Below are positions 1-56,817 of a stretch of DNA of 64,000 nucleotides, in pieces. The notes below the pieces were generated by a model. The model made no database searches and was not told where the DNA came from. It saw only the letters and a program-made list of their open reading frames with translations. A program made the position numbers and the translations under genes. The stretch's first letter is position 1. Every line of letters begins with the position of its first letter. This DNA is from Octopus vulgaris (taxonomy: Eukaryota): the NCBI GenBank assembly GCA_951406725.2, contig OX597824.1, forward strand, positions 26,660,001-26,724,000. The letters run 5' to 3'.

Positions 1-1735
1 AATTTTCCAGAATCTCATTCGAAAACAGACTCGTACATCAATATTCATCCTTAGACACCAGAAAGATCAAAAACTAAAAAAAATTAAATACCTCGGTCAA
101 ATGAAAGGCGATCAAAGGAAAACAATACATATGAAAATAGCGAAACTCAACTAAAGATAAAATATTCTCTACAGTTTCTTTACGATCTGCTGGGGTATCT
201 CTTCCTGAGAGATTTACACACGAGGTAGTTAAAATGGGATTGAAATTAATTACTCCTTTTACACTATTTTAGGCATTTTTTGAAACTTGAAAATTATGAA
301 ATTAGCGTGCGAAAAAAAATTTACTTGTAATCCAGCAGAGAAAAGAATATCTATTAAAAATTAGCTAGTTATTTTATTAACTTCAATCACAATTAGGTTA
401 AAGTTATGGAAAAAATTCTTGAAATAAAACAAAAAAATATCTCCGGATTATGTTTCAGACTTCACTATACTGGCCAATTTTTGCGCCTAAATATAATGTT
501 GTAATACATAATGATGCAGTACTTACAATGTAATGATTTCAAACAGATGAGAAAATAACGAGAAATCAGAAATTACTCACTTTATCCCCTTATTCCCACC
601 CTTAAATAGAGAGCCTAAGTTGTTCACAAAAGTCACCCATTAGTCTTCCTAGCGATTACATAAAAGGTTCAAAATACACCGAAATAACCACTTAAGCTCC
701 GTTTACACGTTGGCTCCCACACGTCATGTCGGTGCTCTTAGCGAGTCCCGCACGACCTACCAACCGGTGGGTTTTTTTCTTTCTCTTAAAGCTGGTATGT
801 TCCGATTTCTTAGATTTGTGCTTTTGCTAAGAGAATTTAATAGACTTTATATTTTCGTTTTACTTCTGATTTTACCATGAAGTAAAAAAGATTCAATGAC
901 AAAATTGTCTCAAACAAAAATAGTTAATTCTTTGAAAAAAAATTATCCAATAGAAATAATATTTTACTTGCCATGGAAATCAAAATAGTTCTTTTTGAAA
1001 AAAGAATTTCGAGATCTTCCAATAGAAGAGAGCTAAAATTTTTAATTGACACGGTGTGGTATGTAAGATGTGATATGAACTAGGGTACCAAACGACTCTC
1101 CGGTGGAATGTGGGTATCTAACATTGCAATCCTTACCTCAGTATAGAGTAAAAATATTACGCCGCTCATGTCAAAATTAAGATAACGTATTGGGACCCTG
1201 GGATAAAACTAATGAGTCTAGAGACCCGACGTGTTAACAGTAAAAGCTGTACGACAGACACGGAAAACATACCCAGAAAATATTGCAGTTTCAAAATAGA
1301 AAGAGACTATATTAAATAACTGAAAATATTAGTAAATTATGACAAACGATTTAAATTCAAAATTGTATTTAATATTTTTTATATAGTTCTAAATACAATT
1401 TTGTGAAGACTAGAAAATTGTTAATGTAGACCGAGTTGAAATTAAATGCAGTTTTGTAATACAAAAATTGTTAATGGGTTAATTATAAGCAAGGGATACG
1501 AATAGAGGGGTAATTTTTCCAATGAAGAGGGATTGTACAAGTCTATATCTCTTCGTTGTAAATTTTGAAGAGATTTTCTCTAAGTTTTCACGGTCGCACT
1601 TATGTAGCTCTAGACAAAAATCACTGATTTTTAAAAATTCTTAACGACATACTAACTAAAAATCAAAGAGGTTTTTTTTTTCTAAATGCTTTTAGAGTTT
1701 TCTATACGTTTGTTTCTCATGTAATGTAGTATGCG

Positions 1736-1748
1736 GTTACATGGCAAC
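1736..1748 (-). promoter_or_regulatory. Candidate RFX X-box (GTTGCCATGTAAC) in tubulin intron 1
   Basis: Fits the X-box consensus GTNRCC-N0-3-RGYAAC closely. Identical at 15159-15171 and 34174-34186. Confidence 0.45.
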
Positions 1749-2203
1749 TTTTGGCTGTCATGTTGCTTTGAAATCTAGATGAAAATTCTATTTTATAAAA
1801 TTCAATATTTTTTGCTATTATGCAAAAGGGTCGAAAGTCCCAAACGCTGCTTTTTCAGAATGAAAAAAAAAAGTTTCACCATTCCACAGCAAAACCGTTG
1901 TACTACACTTTGACAATTTTCGATATCTTGCCATCTGAAGCAACTAGAGATACAATATTTCGGCTAAAAGAACCGGCTATTGCAAATGAAAATAAATACT
2001 GAATAAAACGTATTTGGCTAAATTTAGACGTACGACAGTTTAACATAATAGCAACCATATAAACATTGCGAAAGCAAGAAAAGAATTTCACTAATAAATC
2101 TGAACAAAATATTTTGTAAATGTGAATAAAGGTTATTATATTCAAAACTGGATTTCCCATAAATTTGGAGAGGCAGACTAGAAATAAACCGTAGCAAATT
2201 TAC

Positions 2204-2206
2204 CAT
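2204..2206 (-). CDS. Probable exon 1 (ATG only) of a third alpha-tubulin copy whose remaining exons lie left of the window
   Basis: Minus strand ACAACA-ATG|GTAAAT, same as at 15628-15630 and 34639-34641. Bases 1-2203 align to intron 1 of copy A (13198-15627). Confidence 0.6.
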
Positions 2207-2532
2207 TGTTGTCGCGCTGTTTCTGTACCGTTCAAAGTGGAGTCAATAAACAAGACGGTGGTTTTGCTCTTGGCCTTGCTACAAATAGTAATATTTTTTA
2301 CTCTCCTCCTACTCTTACTCTTATACTACTCCGTGTTAGCCAATTGTGATCGTATGTTCGAAGACAGTCTCAAACTGAAGGGTGTGATTTTGAGGGGGGT
2401 AATAAATTAATTTTGATTTAATTTTCTTTTTTTCAATTTAACACCCCTATAACTACAAATGGCTAAACTTAACGGAATGGTTCACATATTGAAATAATTT
2501 CATCAACTAATAAACCGAAAGAACAGAGAGGT

Positions 2533-4463
2533 TGTTTTATTATTACCCACAAGGGGCGAACATAGATGGGACAATACAATCGGGAAAATGAATAATGAAT
2601 TATGAAGTTTGTACAATGTGGTGTAATGCCCACTCGATCCCCGAAATCGAGCGGTTACATTTCGTCATTTGTTTTTTATTCGTCAACAATATTTTCCAAA
2701 GAAAACATTTTTATACATTTTCAACATACATTTCAAAAATTTTACAAAGTTCAACATTTTTTTTTTCCAGAATTTAAAGTTCTTTTTATCATTTCCAAAT
2801 TAAAGTTTTCACAATACCTTTTCTTTTATATATACTCCATTATCTCTACCAAATCTGAGTAAACTTCCATCATTCGTGGCCACCTTGTAAGTCGGCATTT
2901 CATATGTTTTGACACGTTCTTGCCAGCTGCCTCGATGAACGCCTCGGCGTCGTTCTCGTGGACGAGTGCACCTGTTTCTTTCCATTCGGTGCCCATCCTG
3001 ACCCACGTATATCCATTTGTTACGTTTATTAAATCTTCCATCTCCTCACAGTGCCTGTGATGGATCAACGTTCCATAGTATTTGAATTTTCTATTCGTAC
3101 CTACGTTTTCTCTAGTTTTTCTCTTAGGACTTACTTCCTCTTTTTTCTCCTCCCTCGGTTTCTCTCTTTCTCTCTTTTTGCTTTCTCTTCTTTCTTTTTC
3201 CTTCTCTTGTCTTTTTGGCTCTTTGTCTGCCGTCTCTCTACCCTGTGCCTTGAATTCCTTTCCTGTTGTTTCTTTTCCTTTTTGCATACCATCTTTTCCT
3301 TTCTCTTGGTTCTGTTCCTTCTCTTGTTCTTTTCCTGCTTTTTCTCTTTCCTTTAATGTACTTTCCTTTTCTTTCTCTTGCTTCTGTCTTGGCTCCTTCT
3401 CCACTACTTCTGCACCCTGTGAATTTTGCTCCTTTTCTACTATCTTCTTCCCTTTGTTTTCATTTTCCTTCAGTGCGCTGTTACTTCCCTTCTCTTGTTG
3501 TTTCTCCGTTATTTCCTTTTCCTTGTTTTCGCTGTTCTTTCCTTCGTGTTCGTTTTCCTTCTCTCCACTTTGTGTCTCTTTTTGCTCCGCTGTGAATTCA
3601 TACAGCGGGCATTCCTTTTTATGTGCCCTCTTGATCCGCACAGGTAGCAATTCGGTTTTCTGCCTTCCACTATTACACTAATTGTTTTCTCGTTTTCTAT
3701 TTCTATTTGGAAGGGAAATCTTTCGATGTCTTCCATTGTGGCCATCAGCCACAACTCTACTCCGAATCCCTTCCAATTTACAACGTTCGTCTCCTTAATT
3801 GACCCTATTTCTACTTCCTCTTTTGCTGCCCCAATAATGGCTGTTACCAGCATTTCTGTTTTAATATCTGGGGGCACCTTTGGGACTCTTACCCGTACCC
3901 CTCGTCTTCCTTTATACGTCGGCCACATGGTGAAATTTTCCGCTTTCAGGACAGTGGAAGCCAATGAGGCCGCCACTTCCTTTGTTGCGCATCTCACCTC
4001 CACCGTACCATATTTCTTTCCTCTGTCTACAAAAGTCGCTTTTTTCATGATGTCCCCCAGACATTTCTCTATTTCTTCAATCGTCACTCTCACCAGTTTT
4101 CTCGTGTTTCTATCTTGCGTTCTATACGTTATCGTCTTGTTATTTCTCTCTTCTATTGTTTCCACAGGCGGGACCAGCTTCACGCTGTCACCCTCCCTTT
4201 TGACGAACTTCTCGTATTCCTTCAATTGTTCTTTTCTAAAGAACACTTCTTTTATTCTAAGTGACTCGTCACTTTTTGTTGTGGCGACCCCCGCGTAAGT
4301 CTCCATGACTTGAGGGTCGACACACCTTCTATAAAAGGTTCAAACACGCAGCGGCAAACGCCTCGCGCGATTCAATTTTTTTCCAATTTTTAACAGTTTA
4401 TTTTTCCAATTTTCACATACAAAATAACTCACAACACACATGGGTAGATTTCCTCCAGGTGTT
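2533..4463 (-). mobile_element. ORF1-only non-LTR retroelement (HAL1-like), 1931 bp, with 18-bp TSD
   Basis: TSD ccgaaagaacagagaggt at 2515-2532 and 4464-4481. Empty site present in paralogous copies near 15945 and 34955. Single gag-like ORF, no RT, SINE-like 3' tail. Confidence 0.85.
2826..4306 (-). pseudogene. L1/Tx1-type ORF1-like protein (about 493 aa) with CCHC zinc knuckle, broken by a 1-nt frameshift
   Basis: ORFs 3509-4306 and 2826-3650 join into CYLCGSRGHIKKEC (CX2CX4HX4C) if one base is added to the T run at 3616-3620. A K/E-rich linker and an approximately 90-aa C-terminal domain follow. Confidence 0.8.
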
Positions 4464-4963
4464 CCGAAAGAACAGAGAGGTGGGAGTTGAAGTTCTTGCA
4501 TACGGAGCACCAAAAATTTAAATCTGAAAAGGAACAACGAAGATACTATTTGAACGTGATAATTTTTCAAATGAAATTGGATTATTTTGCTTTTATTCTT
4601 TAGTGGTGAAAGGTATGTTTAGAAGATTTAATTAAATTCACAAACTGAGAATGACGTTTTAGTTTCAATCTCCATCTGAAGTCACTTCTGTTTATTTAAT
4701 GCCCTGAAGTAACTTCAGTTTAATGAGTCCGCTGTAGTCATCGAAAAAAATGAATATTCAAGCCTCCTATTTTTCTTCCTTCTACAAAATTAACTTGGGA
4801 ATGTTATGAGTTATGATTTTTTAAAAATTGATCACCAAATACAGAAGCAAGCATAATCATACAACTCCGGACACATAATGTCTTTTAATGTTTTCCTACA
4901 TCCCTTCACATCTAGTCCGAAATCCCAGGAGAGTTGCTACAACTTTTGTCCGTCTGAATCATT

Positions 4964-5263
4964 GTTTGTTCCTTTTCGAACCCCGCATGTATCATTAGGG
5001 CCGGTTTCCCGGTTTTCTTGGCGTATAGGTTCCCCACCTTGGACGGGACCGGTCCGTCCCAGGTGAACTGCAAGGTGCAGGAGGAAAGAGTGAGAAAAAG
5101 TTGTGGTGAAAGAGTCAGCAGAAGTTCGCCATTACCTTCTGCTGGAGCCGCGTGGAGCTTAGGTGTTTCGCTCATAAACACACACATCGCCCGGTCTGTG
5201 ATTCGAACCCACGATCCCTCGACCGCGAGTCCGCTGCTCTAACCACTGGGCCATGTGCCTCCA
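4964..5263 (-). mobile_element. tRNA-derived SINE (family 3, tail type a) with 13-bp TSD
   Basis: A box (TGGCCCAGTGG) and B box (GGTTCGAATC) on the minus strand. TSD cgtctgaatcatt at 4951-4963 and 5264-5276. Orthologous copies at 16459-16755 and 35472-35772. Confidence 0.85.
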
Positions 5264-6040
5264 CGTCTGAATCATTAAGGCATAATTATCCACAAAGTAC
5301 AGAAGATCATGTAAAGGGAACTGGTTGCTTCTTTACACTTTTGGGGTGCAACTTGGGTGCAACACAATTTCCTTTCTTTTTGTTTCTAGAAACTACCAGT
5401 CAGGAACGAAAAGCAACTTTAGAAATATATAATTCTTTATTCTCTTATTCAACAATGAAACACAATGGTATACTGGTATCCATTCTTACAACAATTCAGC
5501 AGCAATAGATAGGTTAAATCCCAAGCGTCTGGGGCAGGAGAATAGGTTGATCACACTTATGAAAATACGTCCTTTCTCTTCGATCGCCGTGCCTCAAGTC
5601 CCCGAACGCTATTAAGGAACGCTATAGAATTTATTCTTCAGTCTCTAGCGCATGTGCATGGGGAAACTTCTTTATGCCTTTCCAGAAGGCTCCAACCCAG
5701 CACACGCACACTGAAGAAAGACGTTCCGCACACGCACACTGAAGAATGACGAAATATGACGTCACTACAATCATTTAAAAATTTGGAATTCATATATTTA
5801 AAAAAAAAATTATTACAATATGCATTTATTTTATAATAATTTTGATCCAAAGCCAGTGTGCACATAGGCAAACCGCATCAGGTCGTGTAGGTTCGTATCT
5901 AGATAGAGTATTCTACAGGTCAGTTGATAATGATAGCATAGGTGATCCATATTTCAAAATGTTCAGCTACACGTAATCCAAATTTGTCATCTACACGGTC
6001 GACCTAGATAAGCGTCGTAGACTGGAAGCCGGTTACTGCA

Positions 6041-7315
6041 AAAATTTTCCAACCAAATTTTCGAAAAAACCTTTTGAAAATTTTCCTCAAAAATCTTTGA
6101 AAATTTTTCCTAAACATTTTGGAAAACCCCGTGTATCTCCGGCAAACTTCGGATATTTCCGGTAAATTCCGGCAATCTCCACCAATTTCCGGTGATCTCG
6201 GACAATTTGCGGCAAACTCCGGTAATCTACGGCAATTTCCGGCAATATCTGGTTATTTCCGGCAACCCCCGACAATTTCCGGCAATCTCCAGTAATTGCC
6301 GGCAATCTCTGGCAATTTCCGGTAATTTCCGGCAATCTCCGGCAATTTCCGATAATTTCCGGCTATCTCCAGCAATGTCTGGTAATTAACGACAATTTCC
6401 GGCAATCTTCGGCAATCTCCGGCAATCTTTTTTTCAAAAATTTTATAAAATTTTGCAAAAAAATTTACAATTTTCCTCAAAAATTTTTTTGGAAAATTGT
6501 ACTCAAAAATATTTTAAAATTTTCCTCAAAAACTTTTGAAAACCTTTGCCAAAAATCAAAAAATTTTGAAAACTATCGTCAATTTTTCAAAATTTTTCCC
6601 AAAAGGTTTTGAAAAATTTTTTGACAAGTTTCCCAAAAAATTTTTGAAAAATTTTTGAAAATTTTCCCCTAAAATTTAAGGAAAATTTTTTGAAAATTTT
6701 CGTCAAAAATTTTTGAAAATGTACCCAATAATTTTTGAAAATTTTTCGCAAAACTTTCTGAAAACCCCGGGTATCTACGGCAAACTTCGCATATCTCCGG
6801 TAAACTCCGGTAATCTCCGGCAAGTTCCGGTAATCTCCGACAAATTCGGCAATCTTCTGCAATTTCTGCCAATGTCCGGCAATTTACGGCAATCTCCGGC
6901 AATCTCTGGCAAACTCCGATAATCTCCGGCAATATCCAGTAATTTCTGGCAATACTCGGCAATCTCTGCCAATTTCCGGCAGTTTCCGATAATTTCCCGC
7001 AATATCCGGCAATCTTTTCCCAAAAATTTTCGAAAAATCTTTTGAAAATTGTCCTCAAGAAGTTTTGAAAATTCTCCAAAAGTTTTTGAAAAATTTCCCA
7101 AAAATTTTTAAAAAATGTTTTTGAAAATTTTCCTCTAATGTGCTTGAAAATTTTCCTAAAAATCTTTGAAAATTTTCCTAAAAAACTTTTGGAAATTCTC
7201 AAAATTTTTGAAAATTTTTCTCAAAAATTTTATAAAATTTTCCAAAATTTTTGAAAATTTTCCTCAAAAATTTTTGAAAATTTTTCCCAAAAATTTTTGA
7301 AAAAGTTTTTGAAAA
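6041..7315. repeat. Composite minisatellite: GC-rich 10-bp (TCCGGCAATY)n blocks alternating with AT-rich AAAATTTT blocks
   Basis: Blocks: AT 6041-6120, GC 6121-6425, AT 6426-6760, GC 6761-7012, AT 7013-7315. Absent from the paralogous site at about 17070-17118. Confidence 0.9.
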
Positions 7316-7344
7316 TTAGTAAATCTGCCACAAAAGATGAGTTG

Positions 7345-8065
7345 TCCTTTCTAGTTTAGATTAGAATCGATTAAGTTGAAGAACCTAAAGGCGATAGAGA
7401 AAATTGAACAGAGGGAGACTTAGAAACCTACAAGAGGCGCTTAGGAAAGGAATCGCATCAATTCTTTAATCCAAAGCATGAAGTCTGCATTGTCAGATCT
7501 AGATGCCTGCTGTGAGACGCGAGAGGAGAAAGCTGCGAGATGGAACCGAGTGATGGAGGTGCAACGTGGCAACAAAACCACCGTTCGGTTTTTGGTGGAC
7601 CATAATTGATGCATGCTACTCGAGCGACTCTCAGCAAGGGAGACAAAGTGTTGCAAGAAGCCGCGGAAATACGGGAAGCAATAATTAACTGCACGGGATA
7701 TGAAGCGTCTGATTTTGATGGTTTACCCTACGAGCTTTACTTTTGCTTGAAAAACTTGCTCGGAAACCTCTTGGCATCAGGTAACAGAACGGGAAATTTT
7801 CTAGTTCTGTGGGCCGAAGAGCGGTAACGTTGCTGAGAAAGGGTTCAAACAGGATGAACCACATAGATAATTTCTGGCCCATAACATTGCTAAATGCAGA
7901 TGTCAAAGTTTCGGCCAGTGTTGGAAAATAGGTTGGTTGTCACTTGTCAATGGTTTCATTGGTGATGCACAAATATTCACCATCTGTCCACGACATCCAC
8001 CATCTCATTGTGATACATCATAGAGAGGTGGAATAAAGAGCGTAGCATAGGTGGGTCCTTGATCA
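7345..8065 (+). mobile_element. Decayed L1/Tx1-clade LINE ORF2 fragment
   Basis: Translates to DGLPYELY and VTLLRKG...NFWPITLLNADVKV, resembling the L1/Tx1 RT N-terminal motifs PGPDG and RPISLLN.DYK. Paralog at 17140-17845. Confidence 0.75.
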
Positions 8066-8234
8066 TTGCAAAGCCTTCAAGGCAGTGTCCCAGCATGGCT
8101 GCAGTCCAATGTCTGACGAAATAAAAGAAAAAAAGATAAAAGATAGTTAAACCAAGAAAAAGTTCAGGTAGCTGTCACACTCGAATAGTAGCACATATTC
8201 TTTCACTAATTCTTTTAGGTGTCAGAGTAAATGC

Positions 8235-8540
8235 GGGGTCGATAAAATAAGTACCAGTTACGCACTGGGGTCGATGTAATCGACTTAATCCTTTTGTCTG
8301 TCCTTGTTTGTCCTCTTTGTGTTTAGGCCCTTGTGGGTAGTAAAGAAATAGGTATTTCGTCTGTCGCTACGTTCTGAGTTCACATTCCGCCGAGGTCGAC
8401 TTTGTTTTTCATCCTTTCGGGATCGATTAAATAAGTACCAGTTACGCACTGAGGTCGATATAATCGACTTAATCCCTTTGTCTGTCCTTGTTTGTCCCCC
8501 CCCTGTGTGTAGCGCCTTGTGGGTAGTAAAGAAATAAGAA
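8235..8540 (+). mobile_element. SINE family 1, tandem partial dimer
   Basis: Two units ending ...CCCTTGTGGGTAGTAAAGAAATA; the second begins GGTATTTCGTCTG. Confidence 0.85.
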
Positions 8541-10610: not shown

Positions 10611-11734
10611 TTAGTATTCTTCAATCTCATCTCCCGTTTCAGCTGTGTCAATACCAACTTCTTCATAATCTTTTTCCAGCGCAGCCAAATCTTCGCGCGC
10701 TTCTGTGAACTCTCCTTCCTCCATACCTTCACCAACATACCAATGAACAAAAGCTCGCTTGGCATACATTAAGTCAAATTTATAATTTAGACGGGCCCAA
10801 GCGTCAGCAATAGCTGTCGTATTGTTCAGCATACACACGGCCCGTTGGACCTCAGCCATGTCTCCCCCAGGGATAACAGTTGGGCGTTGGGAATTGATAC
10901 CAACTTTAAACCCTGTTGGGCACCAATCCACAAACTGAATGTCTTTCTTCATTTTAATTGCTGCAATAGCAGCGTTAACATCTTTCGAGACCACATCGCC
11001 TCGGTACAACAGACAACAAGCCATGTACTTCCCACGGCGAGGGTCACATTTAACCATCTGATTACCGGTTTCAAAGCACGCGTTTGTTATTTCAGAAACA
11101 TTTAACTGCTCGTGGTACGCTTTCTCAACCGATATTATTGGTGCATACGAAATCAATGGGAAATGAATACGTGGATAAGGTACAAGGTTGGTTTGAAACT
11201 CGGTTAAATCAACATTAAGGGACCCATCAAACCTTAGAGAAGCAGTAATAGAGCTCACTACCTGAGCAATTGGACGATTAAGGTTGATGTATCTTGGATA
11301 CCCAACATCTAAATGCTTTTTACAGATATCATAAATTGCTTCATTGTCGACCATGAAAGCGCAGTCACAATGCTCTAGAGTGGTATGAGTGGTTAAGACG
11401 GAATTGTACGGTTCCACTACAGCTGTAGAAATTCGTGGTGCCGGATAGACTGAAAATTGAAGCTTTGTCTTTTTACCAAAGTCAACACTCAGGCGCTCCA
11501 TTAGCAGAGACGTGAAACCAGAACCGGTGCCGCCACCGAAACTATGAAAAATCAAGAAGCCCTGGAGGCCAGAGCATTGTTCAGTTACTTTATGAATTTG
11601 GTCACAGACCGAATCAATGATTTCCTTGCCAACGGTATAGTGACCCCTGGCGTAATTGTTGGCTGCATCCTCTTTACCACTGATGAGTTGGTTCGGGTGA
11701 AATAACTGGTTGTATTTTCCAACGCGTATTTCAT
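10611..11734 (-). CDS. Alpha-tubulin copy A, exon 3 (last exon)
   Basis: [38 protein letters not shown] and C-terminal EEY. Acceptor ttttccAG at 11736-11735, phase 1; TAA at 10613-10611. Confidence 0.97.
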
Positions 11735-12222
11735 CTGGAAAATAAGATTTTGAGCAATAATATATCAAACTGGCAATATAAAAATTAAAAGATTTTTCTT
11801 ATATTAGAGGAGTATGAAATGTAGAGATTCTCAGACAGTTACTTGCTTTATCAGTTCAACAAAGTACTTCCATGTACGACATTCCTCAGAATATACTGCT
11901 AACAATACTTACATTCAAATACCGGATACATAAACACTTACTATTCCACTCACATTTAACCGATTTTATAGTCGACACATTTTACTGCCGTGATCAGTTC
12001 TGTTGTACAACAGAATTTTGAAATATTGTCCAATATTCAAGAAAACGGCGTTCGGAAATATAGCAGTAAAAAAGGAACCACTGCTTCATCACAAATCTTC
12101 GAGTTTTTTTTCCAACACAGAAAAACATAGAAGATTGATTAACCAGAACATTAAATGCGCGACAGGGCAATTCCTTGTTTAATTTATTTTTGTAAATACA
12201 ATTTTGAAACGTTTATACTTAC

Positions 12223-13685: not shown

Positions 13686-13919
13686 CATATTTCTTTACTA
13701 ACCACAAGGGGCTAAACACAGAGGACACACAAGGACAGACAAATGGATCAAGTCGATTATATCGAATCCAGTGAATAACTGGTACTTAATTTATCGACCC
13801 CGAAAGGATGAAAGGCAAAGTCGACCCCGACGGAATGTGAACTCAGAATGTAACGGCAGACGAAATACGGCTACGCATTTCGCCAGGCGTGCTATCGTTT
13901 CTGCCAGCTCGCCACTTCA
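13686..13919 (-). mobile_element. Full-length SINE family 1 in intron 1 of copy A, 14-bp TSD
   Basis: TSD tttacgcctaaata at 13672-13685 and 13920-13933; empty site near 480-495. Confidence 0.9.
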
Positions 13920-15835: not shown

Positions 15836-16458
15836 TTTGATTTAATTTTTTTTTTTCAATTTAACACCCCTATAACTACAAATGGCTAAACTTAACGGAA
15901 TGGTTCACATATTGAAATAATTTCACCAACTAATAAACTGAAAGAACAGAGAAGTGGTAGTTGAAGTTCTTGCGTACGGAGCACCAAAAATTTAAATCTG
16001 AAAAGGAACAACGAAGATGCTATTTGAACGCGATAATTTTTCAAATGAAATTGGATTATTTTGCTTTTATTCTTCAGTGGTGAAAGGTATATTTAGAAGA
16101 TTAATTAAATTCACAAACTGAGAATGATGTTTTAGTTTCAATCTCCATCTAAAGTCACATCTGTTTATTGAATGCCCTGAAGTAACTTCAGTCTAATGAG
16201 TCCGCTGTAGTCATAGAAAAAAAATGAATATTCAAGCCTCCTATTTTTCTTCCTTCTACAAAATTAGATTGGGACTGTTATATATAATTTCTAACTTTTA
16301 TTAGTTATGATTTTTTTTTAAATTGATCACCAAATACAGAAGCAAGCATAATCATACAACTCCGGACACATAATGTCTTTTAATATTTTCCTACATCCCT
16401 TCACATCTAGTCCGAAATCCCAGGAGAGTTGCTACAACTTTTGTCCGTCTAAATCATT

Positions 16459-16755: not shown

Positions 16756-17139
16756 CGTCTGAATCGTTAAGGCATAATTATCCACAAAGTACAGAAGATC
16801 ATTTAAAAAGTTGGAATTCATATATTTAAAAAAAAAATTATTACAAGATGCATTTATTTTATAATAATTTTGATCTAAAGCCAATGTGGACATAGGCAAA
16901 CCACATCAGGTCGTCTAGGTTCGTATCTAGATAGAGTATTCTATAGGTCAGTTGATAAGGATAGCATAGGTGATCCATATTTCAAAATGTTCAGCCACAT
17001 GTAATCCAAATTTGTCATCTACACGGTCGACCTAGATAAGCGTCGTAGACTGGAAGCGGGTTACTGCAAGCTGAATGCTTCACTCCAGATGCACAAAGAT
17101 TACACAGACCGGATTCGTGAATTAGTAAAGCTGCCACAA

Positions 17140-17845
17140 ATCTAGTTTAGATTAGAATCGATTAGGTTTAGGAACCTAATGGCGATAGAGAAAATTGAAC
17201 AGAGGGAGACTTAGAAACCTACAAGAGGCGCTTAGGAAAGGAATCACATCAATTCTTTAATGCAAAGCATGAAGTCTGCATTGTCAGAGCTAGATGCCTG
17301 CTGTGAGACGCGAGAGGAGAAAGCTACGAGATGGAACAAGTGATGGAGGTGCAACGTGGCAACAAAACCACCGTTCGGTTTTTGGTGGACCATAATTGGT
17401 GCATGCTACTCGAGCGACTCTCAGCAAGGGAGACAAAATGTTGCAAGAAGCCGCGGAAATACGGGAAGCAATAATTAACTGCACGGGATATAAAGCGCCT
17501 GATTTTGATGGTTTACCCTACGAGCTTTACTTTTGCTTGTAAAACTTGCTCGGAAACCTCTTGGCATCAGGTAACAGAACGGGAAATTTTCTAGTTCTGT
17601 GGGCCGAAGAGCGGTAACGTTGCTGAGAAAGGGTTCAAACAGGATGAACCACATAGATAATTTCTGGCCCATAACATTGCTAAATGCAGATGTCAAAGTT
17701 TCGGCCAGTGTTGGAAAATAGGTTGGTTGTCACTTGTCAATGGTTTCATTGGTGATGCGCAAATTTTCACCATCTATCCACGATATCCACCATCTCATTG
17801 TGATACATCATAGAGAGGTGGAATAAAGAGCGTAGCATAGGTGGG
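17140..17845 (+). mobile_element. Decayed L1/Tx1-clade ORF2 fragment (paralog of 7345-8065)
   Basis: Same RT N-terminal motifs. Confidence 0.75.
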
Positions 17846-18694: not shown

Positions 18695-19619
18695 GTTATA
18701 ATGAAATTGCTTTCTTATATCAGAGTAATAAGGCGTTTCAATAGAGCATCTTCACCCCGGGAATTACCAGGTACACCAGTAGACGGGCTTCTAGTTTCCG
18801 TCTACAAAATTCATGGACAAGGCTTTGATTGGCCCGAGGCTATAAGTAGAGGAGATTTGCCCAAGGCGCAACGTGGTGAGATTGAACCCAGAACCATGTG
18901 GTTGAGAAGCAAGCCTCTTTATTTTATGCAATTGGCCATCAAGGCCGTACATAGAGGGAGTAGCACAAGGTGGGGACAAAAAAAAAACGAATTAATATAA
19001 TGAAAGATGAAATGAAGCCGTTCGGCCACCTCCTTCGAGCGACTTCCTTGAACCTGTTAATACAACATTTATTAAAACACTGTGGAGGCGCAATGGCCCA
19101 GTGGTTAAGGCAGCAGACTCGCGGTCATAGGATCGCGGTTTCGATTCCCAGACCGGGCGTTGTGAGTGTTTATTGAGCGAAAACACCTAAAGCTCCACGA
19201 GGCTCCGGCAGGGGATGGTGGTGATCCCTGTTGTCCTCTTTCACCACAACTTTCTCTCTCACTCTTTCTTTCTGTTTCTATTGTACCTGTATTTCAAAGG
19301 GCCGGCCTTGTCACTCTCTGTGTCCCGCTGAATATCCCCGAGAACTACGTTAAGGGTACACGTGCCTGTGGAGTGCTCAGCCACTTACACGTTAATTTCA
19401 CGAGCAGGCTGTTCCGTTGATTCGGATCAACCGGAACCCTCATCGTCGTAACCGACGCTATATACATATATACATATATATATATACATATACATATATA
19501 CATATATCCATATATATATACATACATATATACATATACATACATATATATATTTACATACATACAGATATATATGTATATATACATATATATATATACA
19601 TACATACAGACATACATAC

Positions 19620-26220: not shown

Positions 26221-26464
26221 ATGTATGTATGTATGTATGTATGTATGTATGTATGTATGTATGTATGTATGTATGTATGTATGTATGTATGTATGTATGT
26301 ATGTATGTATGTATGTATGTATTTTTATGTGTTCAATTACAATAAAGAAGTTATATTAATCTGATAGCTAACTCTACACATTTGCAGAGTAAAAATGTAT
26401 TATTCTTATACAAGAATACTACTCAGAGTGCTATCGAAATTTCGTCCAGCTAAGCCATCATACG

Positions 26465-27385
26465 CTACTCTAAGCAGTAGCATATAAGATGGAGATTGTC
26501 GTGGATCAACCTGCCCGGGATAGGGCACTTTGCGCTTCCTCTACAAGTCTGTTCACGACACGCGCCAACCTTTTCGCTAGCACTTTGGCCAAAATCTTTA
26601 ACTCTGTGTTCAACAGTGTTAGGAGTCTGAAAATTCCTATTTCGTCCCCCTTGCTCGGGTCCTTCCTGATCAACGCACCAGCCCTCCGCTCGCAGGCTTA
26701 GGAATTCTCCCATTCTGCTACCAATTGGTGTAGACGCTGGCCAGTAGGCGCCCGAACAAGACTGGCATACTGTTATAAAATTCATAGGGTAGACCATCGA
26801 GACCCGGCGACTTCTCCTCGGAGCATTCGCCTAGCATCTCGATCACCTCCTTGGCCGTGATTGGGCCTTCACAGCACTCAGCTTCTCATGCCGATAGACG
26901 CGGGTCACCAGACAGGAAGCCTCTAAGGGCCTCACCATGATTGAGAGCCCCTCCCTCACACATCTCGTCCTCGACCGAGCTCCCATTGTCATCAATAAGA
27001 GACCTTATTGTGGCATCATTCCCACGCTGGATTTCTACCATATGGGCCCATCCGGCAACATTAATTAGCTCACGGCCCAATGCGCGCGCTTTAGTCCGAA
27101 CTCTGCAACCCTTATGTTTGGCTTTGAGATGACGGTCCAAGTCCGTTCTCGCTGCCAAAATGTGGGATGCAGAGCCCAACCTAAACGCCTTCTCTAGGTC
27201 CTTAACTAGTTACCCTTCTATTCTAGCCTTATCTAGTCTTAGTTAGTAGCTAAACCTAACAGACTCGAAACGAATGGCTCTCTTGAGGGCGAACCACCAC
27301 TTGTTATTAACTACAGCGCCGGTTAACGCCCTCTGTACTAGTTCCTCAATCCGGCTACAATATCTCTCGCAAGTCAAAATAGGTT
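26465..27385 (-). mobile_element. Decayed L1/Tx1-clade LINE ORF2 fragment
   Basis: Minus strand FRLLTLLNTELKILAKVLAKRL and IPGRLIHDNLHLI, RT motifs typical of L1/Tx1. Confidence 0.85.
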
Positions 27386-27849
27386 TGTTTAGCTTCCCGT
27401 GCCTCAGGTTTCAAGGGGTGGGAAATTTTGTTTTTGCAGGGGCTTGTGTGCGCAGGGGTTGGATCTTTCCGTTGTTTCGTGGGAGTGGGTGGGAGTGTTT
27501 GTCTTTGCGGGGACTGTTCTGTGTGCGTGCTTGTGTGTTGTCTGGGGGAGTTGTTTAGCTTCCAGTACGATCGGAAGCAAGCTTCTTACCACACACTTTT
27601 GTACTATACATATATCTATCAGTGGCTGATATATACTTAGATACATATATATGTTTGTACACACATATACATATGTATAGTGTGGACCTAAAGTCAAGCA
27701 CCAATAAGTTCAATACGCTCCAGAATTGTAAAAGTCGTGTTTCAATATTCGTAAAATTGAATAAAATAAATAAAATAAGATGAATGCTCACATACTTGTA
27801 CATGATGAGCAAAATGAATAATAGTAATAATAGCCATGAAATTTTGGGG

Positions 27850-28335
27850 GAGGTGTTCGTCGATTACATCACCCCCACCCCCACAGTGTTTTACTGGTAC
27901 TTAATTTATCGACCCCGAAAGAATGGGAGGAAAAGTCGATCTTGGGGGCTAAACACAGAGAAGACAAACAAGGACAGACAAACGGATTAAGTTGATTATA
28001 TCGACCCCAGTCCGTAACTAGTACTTATTTAATCGACCCCGAAAGGATGAAAGGCAAAGTCGACCTCGGCGGAATTTGAACTCGGAACGTAACGGCAGAC
28101 GAAATACCTATTTCTTTACTACCCACAAGGGACTGAACACAAAGGGGACAAACAAGGACAGACAAACGGATTAAGCCGATTATATCGACCCCAGTACGTA
28201 ACTGGTACTTATTTAATCGACCCCGAATGGATGAAAGGCAAAGTGTACCTCGGCGGAATTTGAACTCAGAACGTAGCGGCACACGAAATACCGCTCAGTA
28301 TTTCGCCCGGCGTGTTAACGATTCTGCCAGCTCTA
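27850..28335 (-). mobile_element. SINE family 1 multimer
   Basis: Two to three tandem units with the same internal junction as at 8350. Confidence 0.85.
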
Positions 28336-30802: not shown

Positions 30803-31926
30803 TTAATATTCTTCTATCTCATCTTCCGTTTCAGCTGAATCAATACCAACTTCTTCATAATCTTTCTCCAACGCAGCCAAATCTTCGCGCGCTTCCGAAA
30901 ACTCACCTTCCTCCATACCTTCACCAACATACCAATGAACAAAAGCTCGCTTGGCATACATTAAGTCAAATTTACGATTCAGACGGGCCCAAGCGTCAGC
31001 AATAGCTGTCGTATTGCTCAGCGAGCACACGGCCCGTTGGACCTTGGCCATATCTCCTCCAGGGACAACGGTTGGGGATTGGGAATTGATACCAACTTTA
31101 AACCCTGTTGGGCACCAATCCACAAACTTGATGGATTTTTTATTTTTAATTGCTGCAATAGCAACGTTAACATCTTTCGAGACCACATCGCCTCGGTACA
31201 ACATACAACAAGCCATGTACTTCCCACGGTGAGGGTCACATTTAACCATCTGATTACCGGTTTCAAAGCACGCGTTTGTTATTTCAGAAACATTTAACTG
31301 CTCGTGGTACGCTTTCTCAACCGATATTATTGGTGCATACGAAATCAATGGGAAATGAATACGTGGATAAGGTACAAGGTTGGTTTGAAACTCGGTTAAA
31401 TCGACATTAAGGGACCCATCAAACCTTAGAGAAGCAGTAATAGAGCTCACTACCTGAGCAATCGGACGATTAAGGTTGATGTATCTTGGATACCCAACAT
31501 CTAAATGCTTTTTACAGATATCATAAATTGCTTCATTGTCGACCATGAAAGCGCAGTCACAATGCTCTAGAGTGGTATGAGTGGTTAAGACGGAATTGTA
31601 CGGTTCTACTACAGCTGTAGAAATTCGTGGTGCCGGATAGACTGAAAATTGAAGCTTTGTCTTTTTACCAAAGTCAACACTCAGGCGCTCCATTAGCAGA
31701 GACGTAAAACCAGAACCGGTGCCGCCACCGAAACTATGAAAAATCAAGAAGCCCTGGAGGCCAGAGCATTGTTCAGTTACTTTATGAATTTGGTCACAGA
31801 CCGAATCAATGATTTCCTTGCCAACGGTATAGTGACCCCTGGCGTAATTGTTGGCTGCATCCTCTTTACCACTGATGAGTTGGTTCGGGTGAAATAACCG
31901 GCTGTATTTTCCAACGCGTATTTCAT
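30803..31926 (-). CDS. Alpha-tubulin copy B, exon 3
   Basis: Same motifs and splice acceptor as copy A (offset 20192); intact to EEY-stop. Confidence 0.97.
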
Positions 31927-34641: not shown

Positions 34642-35471
34642 TGTTGTCGCGCTGTTTCTGTACCGTTCAAAGTGGAGTCAATAAACAAGACGGTGGTTTT
34701 GCTCTTGGCCTTGCTACAAATAGTAATATTTTTTACTCTCCTCCTACTCTTACTCTTATACTACTCCGTGTTAGCCAATTGTGATCGTATGTTCGAAGAC
34801 AGTCTCAAACTGAAGGGTGTGATTTTGAGGGGGGTAATAAATTAATTTTGATTTAATTTTCTTTTTTTCAATTTAACACCCCTATAACTACAAATGGCTA
34901 AGCTTAACGGAATGGTTCACATATTGAAATAATTTCATCAACTAATAAACCGAAAGAACAGAGAGGTGGGAGTTGAAGTTCTTGCATACGGAGCACCACA
35001 AATTTAAATCTAAAAAGGAACAACGAAGATGCTATTTGAACGCGATAATTTTTCATTTGAAATTGGATTATTTTGCTTTTATTCTTCAGTGGCGAAGGGT
35101 ATGTTTAGAAGATTAATTAAATTCACAAACTGAGAATGATGTTTTAGTTTCAATCTGCAGCTGAAGTCATTTCTGTTTATTTAATGCCCTGAAGTAATTT
35201 CAGTCTAATGAGTTCGCGGTAGTCATCGAAAAAAGAATGAATATTCCAGCCTCCAATATATTCTTCCTTCTACAAAATTAAATTGGGACTGTTATATATA
35301 ATTTCTATCCTTTATGAGTTATGATTTTTAAAAAATTGCTCACCAAATACAGAAGCAAGCATAATCATACAACTCCGGACACATAATGTCTTTTAATATT
35401 TTCCTACATCCCTTCACATCTAGTCCGAAATCCCAGGAGAGTTGCTACAACATTTGTCCGTCTGAATCAGT

Positions 35472-35860: not shown

Positions 35861-36760
35861 AAGAAGAAAGCTTGTTAAAGAAAAGGAAGGAAAGTAAAGA
35901 GGAAGAAACACGGCATGATATTCCAACAACATCAAGAAGGGAAGCCAACGTTAAAAATCAAGTGGGACTACAGGAACAAGTAACTATAAAAGAACCGAAA
36001 AATAAATGACATATTGTGACTTACACGAAAAGCACGGAGATTGAAAAGGAAATAACGAAAATGAAGTCGGTAATAAGAGTGAAGCTAACAATAGAATACT
36101 ATCCAGAGAGTAAAGGCGGCGAGCTGGCAGAAACGTTAGCACGCCGGGCGAAATGCGTAGCCGTATTTCGTCTGACATTACGTTCCGAGTTCATATTCCG
36201 CCGAGGTCGACTTTACCTTTCATCCTTTCGGGGTCGATAAATTAAGTGCCAGTTACGCACTGGGGTCGATGTAATCGACTTAATACCTATGTCTGTCCTT
36301 GTTTGTCCCCTCTATGTTTAGCCCCTTGTGGGTAGTAAAGAAATAACTATCCAGAGAGTACCAAGGCAATTGTAATTGACAAGGAGAGATGCGCAAGACT
36401 AAGAGAATGCTTCGGAAATAGGATAGACCCAGCAGGAGTACGCGTGGAGTTCAACGTCTTGCCATTTTATAGATTATGAGGACCTACTGGCTTACATAAA
36501 ATGGTGAAAAAAGTAAGTAAATGTTTGAAACCCTGATGATTGTAACACACATGCAAAAAAGGAAAAAATAAGAGGAAAAGAATGATAAAAACATTAAATG
36601 ATACTGCTTGCGAGTGGGGAGCATGCAGCCATTTCATCTTCATCATTATTGTTCATCCTTCATTCGTTCCTTCTGTGTTTTTTTTTGTCCCCGCTGTGGT
36701 ATTCTGTCTGTTCTTGTGCTGTCCCCTCTGTGTATAAGCCTGAGTGCTTAAATAAAGAAA
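35861..36760 (+). mobile_element. Probable 5'-truncated ORF1-only element (3' end), interrupted by a SINE
   Basis: A K/E-rich frame continues in phase once the SINE and one TSD are removed. Ends GTCCCCTCTGTGTATAAGCC...AATAAAGAAA, similar to the family 1 tail. Confidence 0.5.
36113..36345 (+). mobile_element. Full-length SINE family 1, 15-bp TSD
   Basis: TSD actatccagagagta at 36098-36112 and 36346-36360. Confidence 0.92.
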
Positions 36761-36813: not shown

Positions 36814-37045
36814 TATTTCTTTACTATCCACAAGGGGCTAAACACAGAGAGGACGAACAAGGACAGACAAACGGATTAAGTCGATCATATCGACCCCAGT
36901 GCGTAACTGTACTTATTTAATCGACCCCGAAAGGATGAAAGGCAAAGTCAACCTCGGCGGAATTTGAACTCAGAACGTAACGGCAGACGAAATACCGCTA
37001 AGCATTTCGCCCGGCGCGCTAACGTTTCTGCCAGCTCGCCGCCTT
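36814..37045 (-). mobile_element. Full-length SINE family 1
   Basis: Reverse complement of 36113-36345. Confidence 0.9.
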
Positions 37046-37699: not shown

Positions 37700-38158
37700 A
37701 CCCTCTTCTCTTTCTTCCTTCATCTGTATACCGCCACCATCATCGCAAATCAAGCAACACGACAAATAGTTATCGATGAGATAGATCAATTATTAACACG
37801 ACAATCTGACAGTTGGTGTGATAAATCGGATATTGATGTGATAATCTAAATATTTGTTGTCATAAAGCGGGTATTCATATGATAAATTGAGTGTCGGAAT
37901 GGTAATCATATGATATACACGAAAATAAAAGCGAACAAACTTACAAATAAATATACATGTGTTACTAAAATGCATGAAATCGTTTGATAAATAGTTGTAC
38001 AGTGATAAAATCGAATGTAACGGTTGCAATTTCGTGAGATAAAGGCATCTTTGTTTTTAAATTCACTATCAGAAATGGAAGATATTTGAAAGACCAATTC
38101 TTTAAATGATCTGCTGAGAAGTGAATGAACAGCAGATATGTATATATATATGCACACA

Positions 38159-38391
38159 AGGCGGCGAGCTGGCAGAAACGTTAGCATGCCGGGCGAAATC
38201 TGTAGCCATATTTCGTCTGCCGTTACGTTCTGAGTTCAAATTACGCCGAGGTCGACTTTACCTTTCATCCTTTTGGGGTCGATAAATTTAGTACCAGTTA
38301 CTCACTGAGGTCGATATAATCGACTTAATCCGTCTGTCTGTCCTTGTTTGTCTCCTCTGTGCTTAGCCCCTTGTGGGTAGTAAAGAAATAG
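38159..38391 (+). mobile_element. Full-length SINE family 1
   Basis: GGCGGCGAGCTGGCAGAA head through GTAAAGAAATA tail. Confidence 0.9.
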
Positions 38392-38664: not shown

Positions 38665-39030
38665 TGGCGAAATGTTTAGCGGAATTTCGTCTGCTGCTAC
38701 GTTCTGAGTTCCAATTCCGCCGAGGTTGACTTTGCTTTTCATCCTTTCGGGGTCGATAAATTAAGTACCAGTTACGCACTGGGGTCGATGTAATCGACTT
38801 AATCCGTTTGTCTGTCCTTGTTTGTCCCCTCTGTGTTTAGCCCCTTGTGGGTAGTAAAGAAATAGGAATTTCATCTGTCTTTACGTTCTGAGTTCAAATT
38901 CCGCCGAAGTCGACTTTGCCTTTCATCCTTTCGGGGTCGATAAATTAAGTACCACTTGCGTACTGAGGTCGATCTAATCGACTGGCACCCTCCCCAGAAA
39001 TTTCAGGCCTTGTGCCTATAGTAGAAAATA
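38665..39030 (+). mobile_element. SINE family 1 dimer; second unit has an alternative tail
   Basis: Second unit ends AAATTTCAGGCCTTGTGCCTATAGTAGAAA, as at 56490-56522. Confidence 0.8.
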
Positions 39031-53418: not shown

Positions 53419-53517
<99 letters not shown>

Positions 53518-56025: not shown

Positions 56026-56817
56026 ATATGTTTCGTAGCTACTAGAATATCGGAAGTAGTAATTATCCAAATGAGGGGGCTAAAAATACCTTAATCAAAT
56101 GAAAGTTATGTTGTTGCCAGAGATCCCATGTTGACTTGCAGGAGTATACTTATATAGTCAATCCAAACATGACCAAGCAAGAAAAAACAACAAGAGTACG
56201 TGGAATAAGTACGGTGTTTTTGGACGATCAAATTCTACCGAGGTTAACTTTGCCTTTCATCCTTATGGGGGTCGATAAATTTGCCCGTAGATTATCGCCT
56301 ACGGGCTTCGTGTTTCGATTGACACACACACATTCACAGATAGTAGACATAACTATACTCCCCATTTCGTGTGCCACTACAAACTGAGTTCAAATTCCAC
56401 CGAGGTTGACTCTGCCTTTCATCCTTATGGGGTCGATAAATCAAGTACCAGTTGAGCACTGGGGTCGATGCAATTGACTATCTCCATCCCGTAAATTTCA
56501 GGCCTTGTGCCTATAATGGAAAGTAATAGTTATACTCTCCATTGAGACAGTTTACGCTCACATGTATACGGTAAACCCTCTGAAAAACACACAGTATACT
56601 GCGCGTATACAAACACACACTCACACACACATCTACAAATTACTATTCACACACACACAACTTTACAGATACATAAGCACACACATAAACACTCCTACAA
56701 ACACAAATAAATAAAAAATCACGAACATTCATACATACATACATACATACATACATACATACGTACATACATACTCTCTCACACATACGAATACATACTT
56801 AGACACACACATACATA

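What the first reader, a model, noticed from the sequence alone, without database searches (positions are those of the whole stretch)
2533..2580. The ORF1-only element and SINE family 1 share the same 3' tail
Seen: the element's 3' end TTGTCCCATCTATGTTCGCCCCTTGTGGGTAATAATAAAA aligns with the SINE end TTGTCCCCTCTATGTTTAGCCCCTTGTGGGTAGTAAAGAAATA (ending at 36345). TSDs are 18, 14 and 15 bp. Known: SINEs often borrow the 3' recognition tail of their partner LINE. Inferred: a three-part system in which one LINE RT mobilises both an ORF1-only element and a SINE. The L1/Tx1-like ORF2 relics at 7345, 17140 and 26465 are candidate partners. A stringent shared tail would be unusual for L1-group elements, which are usually poly(A)-dependent.
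Basis: partly seen in the sequence, partly recalled or inferred. Interest (0 to 1): 0.8.

Follow-up and report, generated by a model that had tools for sequence, protein, structure and literature searches.

The report
Octopus half-LINE sharing a SINE tail
A 1.9-kb octopus jumping element that encodes only an RNA-binding protein ends in nearly the same 45 letters as a common short repeat and also occurs head-to-tail, so both likely borrow the same copying enzyme from a full-length retrotransposon that was not found here.

Summary
Observation confirmed. Window 4463-2533 (minus strand) is a 1,931-bp insertion with an 18-bp target duplication; two paralogous empty sites lie in the window. It encodes only a type I ORF1 (two RRM folds plus a CCHC knuckle) and ends in a ~45-nt tail 80-89% identical to the ends of 8 of 8 tail-A SINE copies. 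Public contigs show a multi-copy family whose ORF1 runs into the same short 3' UTR without ORF2, contigs joining that UTR to the tail, head-to-tail junctions (tail directly before a 5' end), and a third, unidentified sequence class ending in the same tail. So the tail is not a stray SINE fragment. A 4-bp hairpin with a CUUGU loop is kept, with compensatory stem changes, in a second SINE tail, but the tail alone folds no better than shuffles. The partner LINE was not found. Tx1 is plausible but not shown; stringent recognition is inferred. Verdict: a new octopus variant of the HAL1/HeT-A kind of ORF1-only non-autonomous LINE. Interest 0.5.

The parts
2533..4463 (-). ORF1-only non-LTR retroelement, 1,931 bp, apparently full length
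   Evidence: bounded by an 18-bp TSD; absent from two paralogous sites; multi-copy in public contigs
4464..4481 (-). 5' copy of the 18-bp target-site duplication
2515..2532 (-). 3' copy of the 18-bp target-site duplication
4307..4463 (-). 5' UTR, 157 nt; in other copies its first bases directly follow a tail (head-to-tail junction)
   Evidence: table 5 joints 4457->2535 and 4461->2535
3615..4306 (-). ORF1 N-terminal part: two predicted RRM folds and the start of a CCHC knuckle
   Evidence: AF2 pLDDT 92.7; Foldseek tandem-RRM hits, best E 3.4e-5; VIA Z 9.0, rmsd 2.8, 83 aligned, La RRM; zf-CCHC E 0.0068, below the curated cut-off
2826..3677 (-). ORF1 C-terminal part (rest of the knuckle, Lys/Glu-rich linker, ~90-aa terminal domain), in another frame because this copy is one base short in an A-run near 3615
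   Evidence: one more base after 3615 in contigs of 4 of 4 runs (table 4); relatives P0003/P0004 read through the knuckle; terminal domain 40% identical to P0133, E 3e-19
2580..2825 (-). AT-rich 3' UTR, no ORF2
   Evidence: X8 contig 2768-4404 colinear across the stop codon (table 8)
2625..2661 (-). 3' UTR hairpin module, shared with other repeat contigs, absent from the SINE
   Evidence: z -2.9, 2 of 200 shuffles as stable; raised depth and unlike flanks tables 2, 7, 8
2533..2579 (-). shared 3' tail ending in short (TAA) repeats and As
2545..2557 (-). 4-bp hairpin with CUUGU loop inside the tail (predicted)
36113..36345 (+). tail-A SINE copy with 15-bp TSD (36098-36112 / 36346-36360)
13688..13913 (-). 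tail-A SINE copy with 14-bp TSD; empty paralogous site near 490
38158..38390 (+). tail-A SINE copy
36814..37045 (-). tail-A SINE copy
27945..28333 (-). two tail-A SINE units head-to-tail (second unit 5'-shortened, its tail cut)
8234..8537 (+). two tail-A SINE units head-to-tail
38666..39025 (+). tail-A SINE unit followed directly by a tail-B unit with the same body
56364..56520 (+). tail-B SINE copy: same body, different tail, same CUUGU loop with swapped stem
34950..34967 (+). empty paralogous target site, single exact copy of the 18-mer
15938..15955 (+). empty paralogous target site, 16 of 18 bases match
7314..7990 (+). ORF2 relic, breaks off within RT, no 3' end; not testable as partner
17120..17790 (+). 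paralogous duplicate of the 7314 relic (95% identical)
26440..27550 (-). L1-group-like ORF2 relic, breaks off in early RT, no 3' end
   Evidence: human L1 ORF2p E 3e-4 over 69 aa
19892..20540 (+). older relic of a distant ORF1 of the same protein family, cut before the knuckle, no tail
   Evidence: tblastn with P0001 39% over 114 aa, E 1e-14

Best explanation
This is a multi-copy octopus non-LTR retroelement that encodes only an ORF1 RNA-binding protein and ends in the same ~45-nt tail as an abundant SINE, and both are likely copied by the reverse transcriptase of one unidentified autonomous LINE, most likely of the Tx1 clade, which would start at this tail. Shown: TSD-bounded insertion, ORF1-only anatomy, many near-identical copies, tail joined to the UTR in other copies, tail-to-5'-end junctions, and a third sequence class with the same tail. 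Inferred: (1) the element arose from a two-ORF LINE by loss of ORF2, keeping the LINE's 3' end, and the SINE took the same 3' end by a template switch; (2) the partner ORF2 protein binds the tail, probably through the small CUUGU hairpin and the terminal (TAA)/A run, and inserts by target-primed reverse transcription, giving 14-18-bp TSDs; (3) the element's own ORF1p coats its RNA and helps it compete for ORF2p; (4) head-to-tail junctions with 1-4 variable bases and no TSD arise when the RT finishes one RNA and jumps to the tail of the next. Step odds: multi-copy ORF1-only family with integral tail 0.9; same RT as the SINE 0.7; partner is Tx1 0.5; sequence-specific recognition 0.5.
For: 18-bp TSD and two empty paralogous sites. 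20 of 24 listed runs, 11 studies, 4 organism codes hold at least half of the element's words; body contigs at depth 344-628 in X18 against 22.5 for the empty-site joint, and 140-271 in X4 against 10.2. In low-coverage X8 one 1,638-nt contig covers 2768-4404 with 14 differences while the flanks have depth 0. UTR depth stays in the range of the body (X18: 233 at 2590, 302 at 2708, 376 at 2756). An X8 contig joins the tail side (to 2584) to the UTR hairpin (from 2625), depth 15.1, 33 letters on the shorter side. An ~88% relative (X4 record 11, joint 2675->2866) also goes from the ORF1 end to the hairpin in ~190 nt. Head-to-tail joints: 4457->2535 (X4, 2 contigs), 4461->2535 (X5), 4379->2532 (X4). 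Loose ends behind 2577-2581 in all 4 runs, including a 1,011-nt X8 contig with the tail at its end (4 differences in 46), resemble neither the SINE nor the element. A sister ORF1 (74% identical) is annotated in O. vulgaris as CAI9715245-249 and 251 on one chromosome, as CAI9739099-101 on another, and on 6 contigs in all for cluster 2; the neighbouring models differ in sequence, so they are separate loci. ORF1 is type I by fold (definition). Listed ORF1 variants: 16 of 35 synonymous against ~0.2 expected, p 0.002. Hairpin: RNAalifold picks only this helix; 3 of 4 pairs show a two-sided change; covariation reached by 2 of 500 shuffles. L1-Tx1 has 13 recently active families in O. vulgaris.
Against: No RT-encoding sequence ending in the tail was retrieved. 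No contig shown spans the whole element, and only 15 of 18 joints, 24 of 275 loose ends and 32 of 943 pieces were displayed. Depth is not a copy number. The third class could be another non-autonomous family. The tail half of each head-to-tail joint is only 35-43 nt, so the upstream unit is unidentified. Consecutive accessions imply but do not prove adjacency, and ORF2s may be unannotated. The tails fold no better than shuffles (z -0.24, +0.24, -0.28). The element's own minimum-energy fold is a different helix. The covariation rests on two related tail lineages picked after the fact; 12 of 60 cells are unpaired, and 64 of 500 shuffles match the number of doubly changed pairs. Type I ORF1s occur in I, Jockey, R1, Tad1, plant L1, L2 and CR1 as well, so the clade is not fixed. 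The synonymous test used 35 of the 40 rows shown of 180, ignores transition bias and mixes subfamilies.
Confidence: 0.6

Rival explanations
1. The master copy of the ORF1-only element captured the last ~45 nt of the SINE (or of a tail-bearing repeat) by template switch or recombination. The shared tail records that ancestry, and the element is moved by a relaxed L1/Tx1 machinery that needs only an A-rich end.
For: Homology stops abruptly at ~2579. Tail-bearing repeats are ~100-190 times deeper than the ORF1 body (64,991 vs 344-628 in X18), so they are easy donors. SINE tails are swapped by template switching (tails A and B on one body). The tail has no significant fold.
Against: The third class matches the element's tail (4 differences in 46) better than any SINE copy does (0.80-0.89). 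The 3' end is not poly(A). Compensatory stem changes between tails A and B suggest a constraint.
Confidence: 0.2
2. The shared tail is a true recognition signal, but the partner belongs to another clade (CR1/L2 group, RTE, I/Nimb), and the ORF1 comes from that clade or was grafted onto its tail.
For: Stringent tails with small stem-loops are the rule outside the L1 group. Type I ORF1s occur in L2, CR1 and I. I elements end in TAA repeats. CR1 and RTE each have 13 recently active families in O. vulgaris.
Against: 2 of the 3 TSDs begin with A and have no upstream T stretch, unlike the RTE signature in the abstract of PMC6007223; n is tiny. No I/Nimb family is in the recently active list. CR1/L2 insertions usually have short or no TSDs (recalled). 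Atlas look-alikes include ZCCHC3-type RRM pairs at 0.89-0.90, a lead only; their link to Tx1 ORF1 is recalled and a search for it found 0 papers.
Confidence: 0.15
3. The element is a retrocopy or duplicate of a domesticated, ORF1-derived host gene family, not a self-propagating repeat.
For: Relatives are annotated as genes and cluster in runs of accessions; the variants show a synonymous excess.
Against: Intronless, TSD-bounded, dispersed over several chromosomes, head-to-tail junctions with variable linkers, 359 relatives at E<=0.001 including many fragments.
Confidence: 0.03
4. The tail is a SINE fragment that inserted separately at the end of this one copy.
For: SINE fragments are dense in the window.
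Against: The tail lies inside the element's TSD with no TSD of its own; contigs of other runs join the UTR to the tail.
Confidence: 0.02

Closest known systems
HAL1 (half-L1) of mammals
   Same: Non-autonomous LINE derivative that encodes only ORF1p, dispersed, arising by loss of ORF2 (passages).
   Different: ORF1 here is type I (two RRMs + CCHC), with no Transposase_22 hit in 0 of 51 family members. It ends in a conserved tail shared with a SINE, not poly(A). It forms head-to-tail junctions.
HeT-A (Drosophila, Jockey-derived) and Ag-Sponge (Anopheles, CR1-derived)
   Same: ORF1-only non-autonomous LINEs. HeT-A forms head-to-tail arrays (recalled).
   Different: This copy sits alone, with a TSD, in a tubulin gene cluster, not at a telomere. 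The 3' UTR is only 293 nt. No SINE sharing the tail was mentioned for either in the passages read.
Stringent SINE/LINE pairs (L2, CR1, RTE tails; maize ZmSINE2/3 with LINE1-1_ZM; Chlamydomonas SINEX-3_CR with L1-1_CR)
   Same: A short shared 3' end with a small stem-loop before terminal repeats.
   Different: Here the sharer is a protein-coding ORF1-only element, the autonomous partner is not identified, and the hairpin is only 4 bp.
Crocodilian SINEU / Tx1-Mar
   Same: SINEs thought to be mobilised by Tx1-clade LINEs; tandem copies occur.
   Different: That pairing rests on shared target preference, with no shared 3' tail found and poly(A) ends; tandem copies sandwich a TSD, whereas the junctions here have none.
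MetaSINEs and other SINE superfamilies with exchangeable tails
   Same: One head and body carrying alternative tails (tails A and B here).
   Different: Membership was not tested, because the Meta-domain consensus was not readable.

Membership tests
ORF1-only non-autonomous LINE (HAL1/HeT-A/Ag-Sponge type) | encodes an ORF1p and no ORF2 | tested here: met
   contigs colinear from ORF1 into the UTR
ORF1-only non-autonomous LINE (HAL1/HeT-A/Ag-Sponge type) | propagates as a family of many copies with this anatomy | tested here: met
ORF1-only non-autonomous LINE (HAL1/HeT-A/Ag-Sponge type) | marks of target-primed insertion (TSD, simple-repeat or A-rich 3' end) | tested here: met
   one copy only
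ORF1-only non-autonomous LINE (HAL1/HeT-A/Ag-Sponge type) | 5' and 3' parts shared with an identified autonomous LINE | not testable with these tools
   no genome held; scans 24-26, 77, 78, 85 empty
HAL1 proper | type II (Transposase_22) ORF1 from L1 | tested here: not met
   0 of 51 members hit it in Pfam; the fold is two RRMs + CCHC
HAL1 proper | poly(A) 3' end (recalled) | tested here: not met
   ends in short TAA repeats and four As
HeT-A | head-to-tail arrays | tested here: inconclusive
   4 junction contigs in 2 of 4 runs and consecutive gene models of a sister family; upstream units unidentified; this copy is single
HeT-A | telomere-restricted insertion | tested here: not met
   this copy is in a tubulin gene cluster with a TSD
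Tx1 clade | RT groups with Tx1 in a phylogeny | not testable with these tools
   no RT linked to the element or the tail
Tx1 clade | ORF1 with RRM/CCHC combination | tested here: met
   not diagnostic, also in other clades
Tx1 clade | frequent target-sequence preference | not tested
   only one element insertion site available; the three TSDs share no evident motif
Stringent SINE/LINE pair | 3' tail shared with an RT-encoding LINE | tested here: inconclusive
   a third class shares it, but only 30 of its letters could be seen
Stringent SINE/LINE pair | conserved 3' stem-loop with compensatory changes | tested here: inconclusive
   for; against: and only two lineages
Stringent SINE/LINE pair | tail required for retrotransposition | not testable with these tools
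   needs a cell assay
tRNA-derived SINE (the tail-A repeat) | pol III A and B boxes in a tRNA-like head | tested here: inconclusive
   box-like motifs by eye (consensus recalled); ARAGORN 0 genes, Rfam 0 hits
MetaSINE | 66-bp Meta domain after the head | not tested
   consensus only in figures or an unreadable supplement

The most novel reading that the evidence does not exclude
An animal Tx1-clade LINE uses stringent recognition of a small CUUGU stem-loop tail and, through it, drives both one of the octopus's major SINE expansions (tails A and B) and a lineage of ORF1-only parasites that build HeT-A-like head-to-tail arrays by RT template jumping onto that tail.
Probability: 0.3. Interest if true: 0.72.

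Novelty: new variant of a known kind. Interest (0 to 1): 0.5.

Why it matters
SINEs make up 11.6% of the O. vulgaris genome, and I found no paper naming the partner LINE of this SINE. The shared tail gives a direct handle for finding it. ORF1-only non-autonomous LINEs are listed for three clades only (L1, Jockey, CR1); a cephalopod family, probably from a fourth, that also shares a SINE tail and forms arrays would extend the pattern. If the partner is Tx1, it would add an animal case to the three L1-tailed SINEs on record and support stringent recognition as ancestral in the L1 group. For annotation: these ORF1s are being called host genes in O. vulgaris.

Tried and rejected
No genome held. 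Tail pattern in metagenome, prokaryote and viral contigs: 0 matches each. Locus searches with the ORF1 or its relative P0066: no relative confirmed; alignment A1 was too loose to search with. Longer ORF1 forms, 402-2000 aa: none of 1,935 candidates, weak evidence. No EN/RT domain in 28 relatives scanned with Pfam, and no recalled RT/EN motif in 153 proteins. The search meant for the 26465 relic used an out-of-frame ORF and found nothing; it says nothing about the relic. No RNA holder listed; run X5 is only guessed to be RNA, so expression is not shown. The O. vulgaris transcriptome supplement was not readable as text; the repeat library of PMC13282606 is on Zenodo, out of reach; either could hold the partner. 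The empty-site contig of X4 cannot be assigned to this locus or to a paralogue (differences 2/5 vs paralogues 4/6 and 2/9), so insertion polymorphism is not shown. The third-class and post-tail motifs are not in the window, apart from one near match at 60183-60196 in another repeat. Rfam 0 hits, ARAGORN 0. Earlier scan notes: nothing in 4 look-ups. Rejected: the in-window ORF2 relics as testable partners; a strong tail structure; a private SINE fragment.

Full report
Setting. The window is octopus DNA: the closest relatives of the ORF1 are Octopus vulgaris models, 98-100% identical over the stretches aligned. It holds a tandem tubulin cluster (ORFs 10611-11798 and 30803-31990) whose repeat unit gives natural empty sites. 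No whole genome was available.

The observation. The quoted ends are present. BLASTN aligns 2531-2579 with 36347-36299 at 84% over 50 nt, E 1.2e-6. Against 8 of 8 tail-A SINE copies the match is confined to the last ~45 nt of the element and beats all 300 shuffles each time; 3 of 3 tail-B copies do not match. Identity is 0.795-0.886; the SINE copies are 0.87-0.94 alike among themselves (21 pairs). TSDs of 18, 15 and 14 bp are real; three other SINE copies tested had none.

The element. It runs 4463-2533 on the minus strand between 18-bp repeats; paralogous sites at 34950-34967 and 15938-15955 carry the 18-mer once. Anatomy: 157-nt 5' UTR, a 1,481-nt ORF1 split by a frameshift at the zinc knuckle, and a 293-nt 3' UTR including the tail. 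There is no room for an ORF2. AlphaFold2 on a 51-sequence alignment gives a confident model of the first 229 residues (pLDDT 92.7). Foldseek returns tandem-RRM proteins (best E 3.4e-5, but TM-scores of ~0.3, since the two domains are oriented differently). VIA-align gives La RRM at Z 9.0, rmsd 2.8, 83 aligned. zf-CCHC hits 15 of 51 members. This is a type I ORF1, which occurs in several LINE clades, Tx1 among them. A full search finds 359 relatives at E<=0.001; all 16 clusters with a source name, of 20 look-ups, are octopods or Argonauta.

It is a family, and the tail belongs to it. 20 of 24 listed runs (11 studies, 4 organism codes) hold at least half of the element's words. Four runs were laid on 2330-4660. 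Body contigs have depth 344-628 in X18 against 22.5 for the empty-site joint and 46 for a flank contig, and 140-271 in X4 against 10.2. That points to the order of 10-20 near-identical copies, though the tool warns that depth is no copy number. In low-coverage X8 one contig covers 2768-4404 with 14 differences and one gap while the flanks are uncovered. All four runs show one more base after 3615, so the frameshift is private to this copy. Depth through the 3' UTR stays in the range of the body. An X8 contig joins the tail side to the UTR hairpin (2584->2625, 33 letters on the shorter side), and an ~88% relative also reaches the hairpin ~190 nt after the ORF1 end. No displayed piece spans the whole element, and most rows were not displayed (15 of 18 joints, 24 of 275 loose ends, 32 of 943 pieces, 40 of 180 substitutions, 12 of 35 indels shown). 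Of the 35 displayed substitutions in the ORF, 16 are synonymous against ~0.2 expected: weak support for selection on ORF1p.

(a) Head-to-tail junctions: the element's first bases follow a tail directly in X4 (4457->2535, two contigs, 2 and 4 letters between; 4379->2532, a 5'-shortened copy) and in X5 (4461->2535, one letter between, on the main body contig), with no TSD. Independently, a sister ORF1 (74% identical) is annotated as CAI9715245-249 and 251 on one chromosome and CAI9739099-101 on another, besides dispersed copies; the neighbours differ in sequence. Arrays are therefore likely. Variable short linkers without TSD fit end-to-end template jumping (recalled; only the title of Bibillo and Eickbush 2004 was seen). 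Insertion into an older tail is the alternative. (b) A third class: in all four runs contigs leave the reference at 2577-2581 into sequence unlike both the SINE and the element. One is a 1,011-nt X8 contig with the tail at its end, 4 differences in 46. It is the best candidate for the partner LINE's 3' end, but only 30 letters were visible and it may be another non-autonomous family. Depth over the tail is 64,991 in X18 and 15,946 in X4.

Structure of the tail. Folded alone, the tails are no more stable than shuffles (z -0.24 for the element, +0.24 tail A, -0.28 tail B). But a 4-bp hairpin with a CUUGU loop recurs: 6 of the 7 such hairpins in the window (of 143 loop pentamers) lie in these tails. 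A second SINE tail on the same body keeps the loop and swaps the stem. On 15 aligned tails RNAalifold predicts only this helix; 3 of 4 pairs show a two-sided change, 80% of cells pair, and 2 of 500 shuffles reach the covariation score, though 64 of 500 reach the pair count. This is two related lineages chosen after the fact: suggestive, not proof. A stronger hairpin at 2625-2661 (z -2.9) is shared with other repeat contigs but not with the SINE.

The proposed partners. The relics at 7314 and 17120 are one insertion duplicated with the tubulin unit (95%). The relic at 26440-27550 resembles L1 ORF2p weakly (E 3e-4). All stop inside RT with no 3' end, so none can be tied to the tail. Every route to a full-length LINE failed.

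Mechanism. Most likely a two-ORF LINE lost ORF2 and left an ORF1-only derivative with the LINE's 3' end; a SINE took the same end; the autonomous ORF2p copies all of them by target-primed reverse transcription. Tx1 is my best guess for the partner: type I ORF1, 14-18-bp TSDs, 13 recently active L1-Tx1 families in O. vulgaris, and 2 of 3 TSDs lacking the RTE signature. CR1 and RTE are as active, so this stays at about even odds. Confidence in the whole is 0.6; rivals are capture of the tail with relaxed mobilisation (0.2) and a non-Tx1 partner (0.15).

Comparison with what is known. It works like HAL1, HeT-A and Ag-Sponge, the ORF1-present non-autonomous LINEs, but fails HAL1's ORF1 type and HeT-A's telomeric restriction, so it is filed as a new variant of that kind. 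Shared SINE/LINE tails are common outside the L1 group; three L1-tailed SINEs were on record in 2012. The Tx1-mobilised SINEU families were paired by target preference, with no shared tail found for SINEU-1. Nine answered literature searches on the topic and one with no hit showed no description of this family; Repbase, Dfam and the Zenodo library could not be checked and may hold it under an automatic name.

What I saw of each paper. PMC5786205: passages and section 23. PMC4824008: passages, section 9, one of two supplements searched. PMC13282606: parts 1-2 of 3 and a supplement search. PMC3472496: abstract and opening text. PMC6007223: abstract. Passages only: PMC4758252, PMC4494074, PMC3747384, PMC9115989 (sequence supplements unreadable), PMC8967140, PMC4120745, PMC11203168, PMC5203782, PMC5804259, PMC5753468. 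Bao and Jurka 2010 was not held and is known second-hand. Recalled without a call: HeT-A arrays, HAL1 poly(A), short TSDs of CR1/L2, the ZCCHC3-Tx1 link, pol III box consensus.

Verdict. Observation confirmed; interpretation partly supported; new variant of a known kind; interest 0.5, about 0.72 if a Tx1 partner with stringent recognition is shown (probability 0.3).

Noticed in passing
window 10611-11798 and 30803-31990 (-): Two tubulin coding exons in a tandemly duplicated unit; a third copy of the flanking unit covers 3-6000. SINE and LINE insertions differ between the units (for example the SINE at 13688 is absent from the paralogous site near 490), which allows relative dating.
   Followed up: partly
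window 8350/8352, 28109/28107, 38864/38868: Tail-A SINE units are followed directly by a second unit that restarts at the same internal position in 3 of 3 cases, once with tail B; this suggests an inherited dimeric master or a fixed jump point.
   Followed up: partly
window 2625-2661 (-): A stable 3' UTR hairpin shared with other repeat contigs that have different flanks on both sides; a possible second recognition element absent from the SINE.
   Followed up: partly
window 2532, loose ends in runs X8 and X5: The same 27 letters follow the tail in two studies, one of them low-coverage, so a second multi-copy tail-to-something junction exists; possibly the 5' end of another element.
   Followed up: partly
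window 2540-2566, run X18 (table 5c): A contig shows a tail, nine letters resembling the element's 5' start, then a partial tail again: a possible double template jump.
   Followed up: no
window 19892-20540 (+): Old relic of a distant ORF1 of the same family with an acidic N-terminus, cut before the knuckle.
   Followed up: partly
window 6100-7300: A 10-bp-unit tandem array and a palindromic A/T-rich 11-12-bp-unit array just upstream of the first ORF2 relic, missing from the paralogue near 17100.
   Followed up: no
window 53375-53675 and 57295-57690: Arrays with 9-12-bp units giving long open frames.
   Followed up: no
window 18979-19263, 21059-21543, 58307-58800 and 5078-5264: Another SINE-like family with a tRNA-like head, and a further family near 59044-59430 with its own tail (families D19 and D16).
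   Followed up: no
window 58830-59050 and 60090-60310 (-): Two diverged copies of a ~220-bp unit, one split from the other by SINE insertions.
   Followed up: no
proteins P0075, P0089, P0093, P0040: Fragments of this ORF1 family are fused into octopus gene models of an astacin, an LDL-receptor-domain protein, a WD40 protein and a coiled-coil protein; probably annotation artefacts, possibly exonisation.
   Followed up: no
protein P0066/P0153: An 861-aa relative lies on unnamed contigs of 3,483 and 6,159 nt; the longer has room for an ORF2 and could link this ORF1 family to an RT clade, but the DNA could not be fetched.
   Followed up: partly
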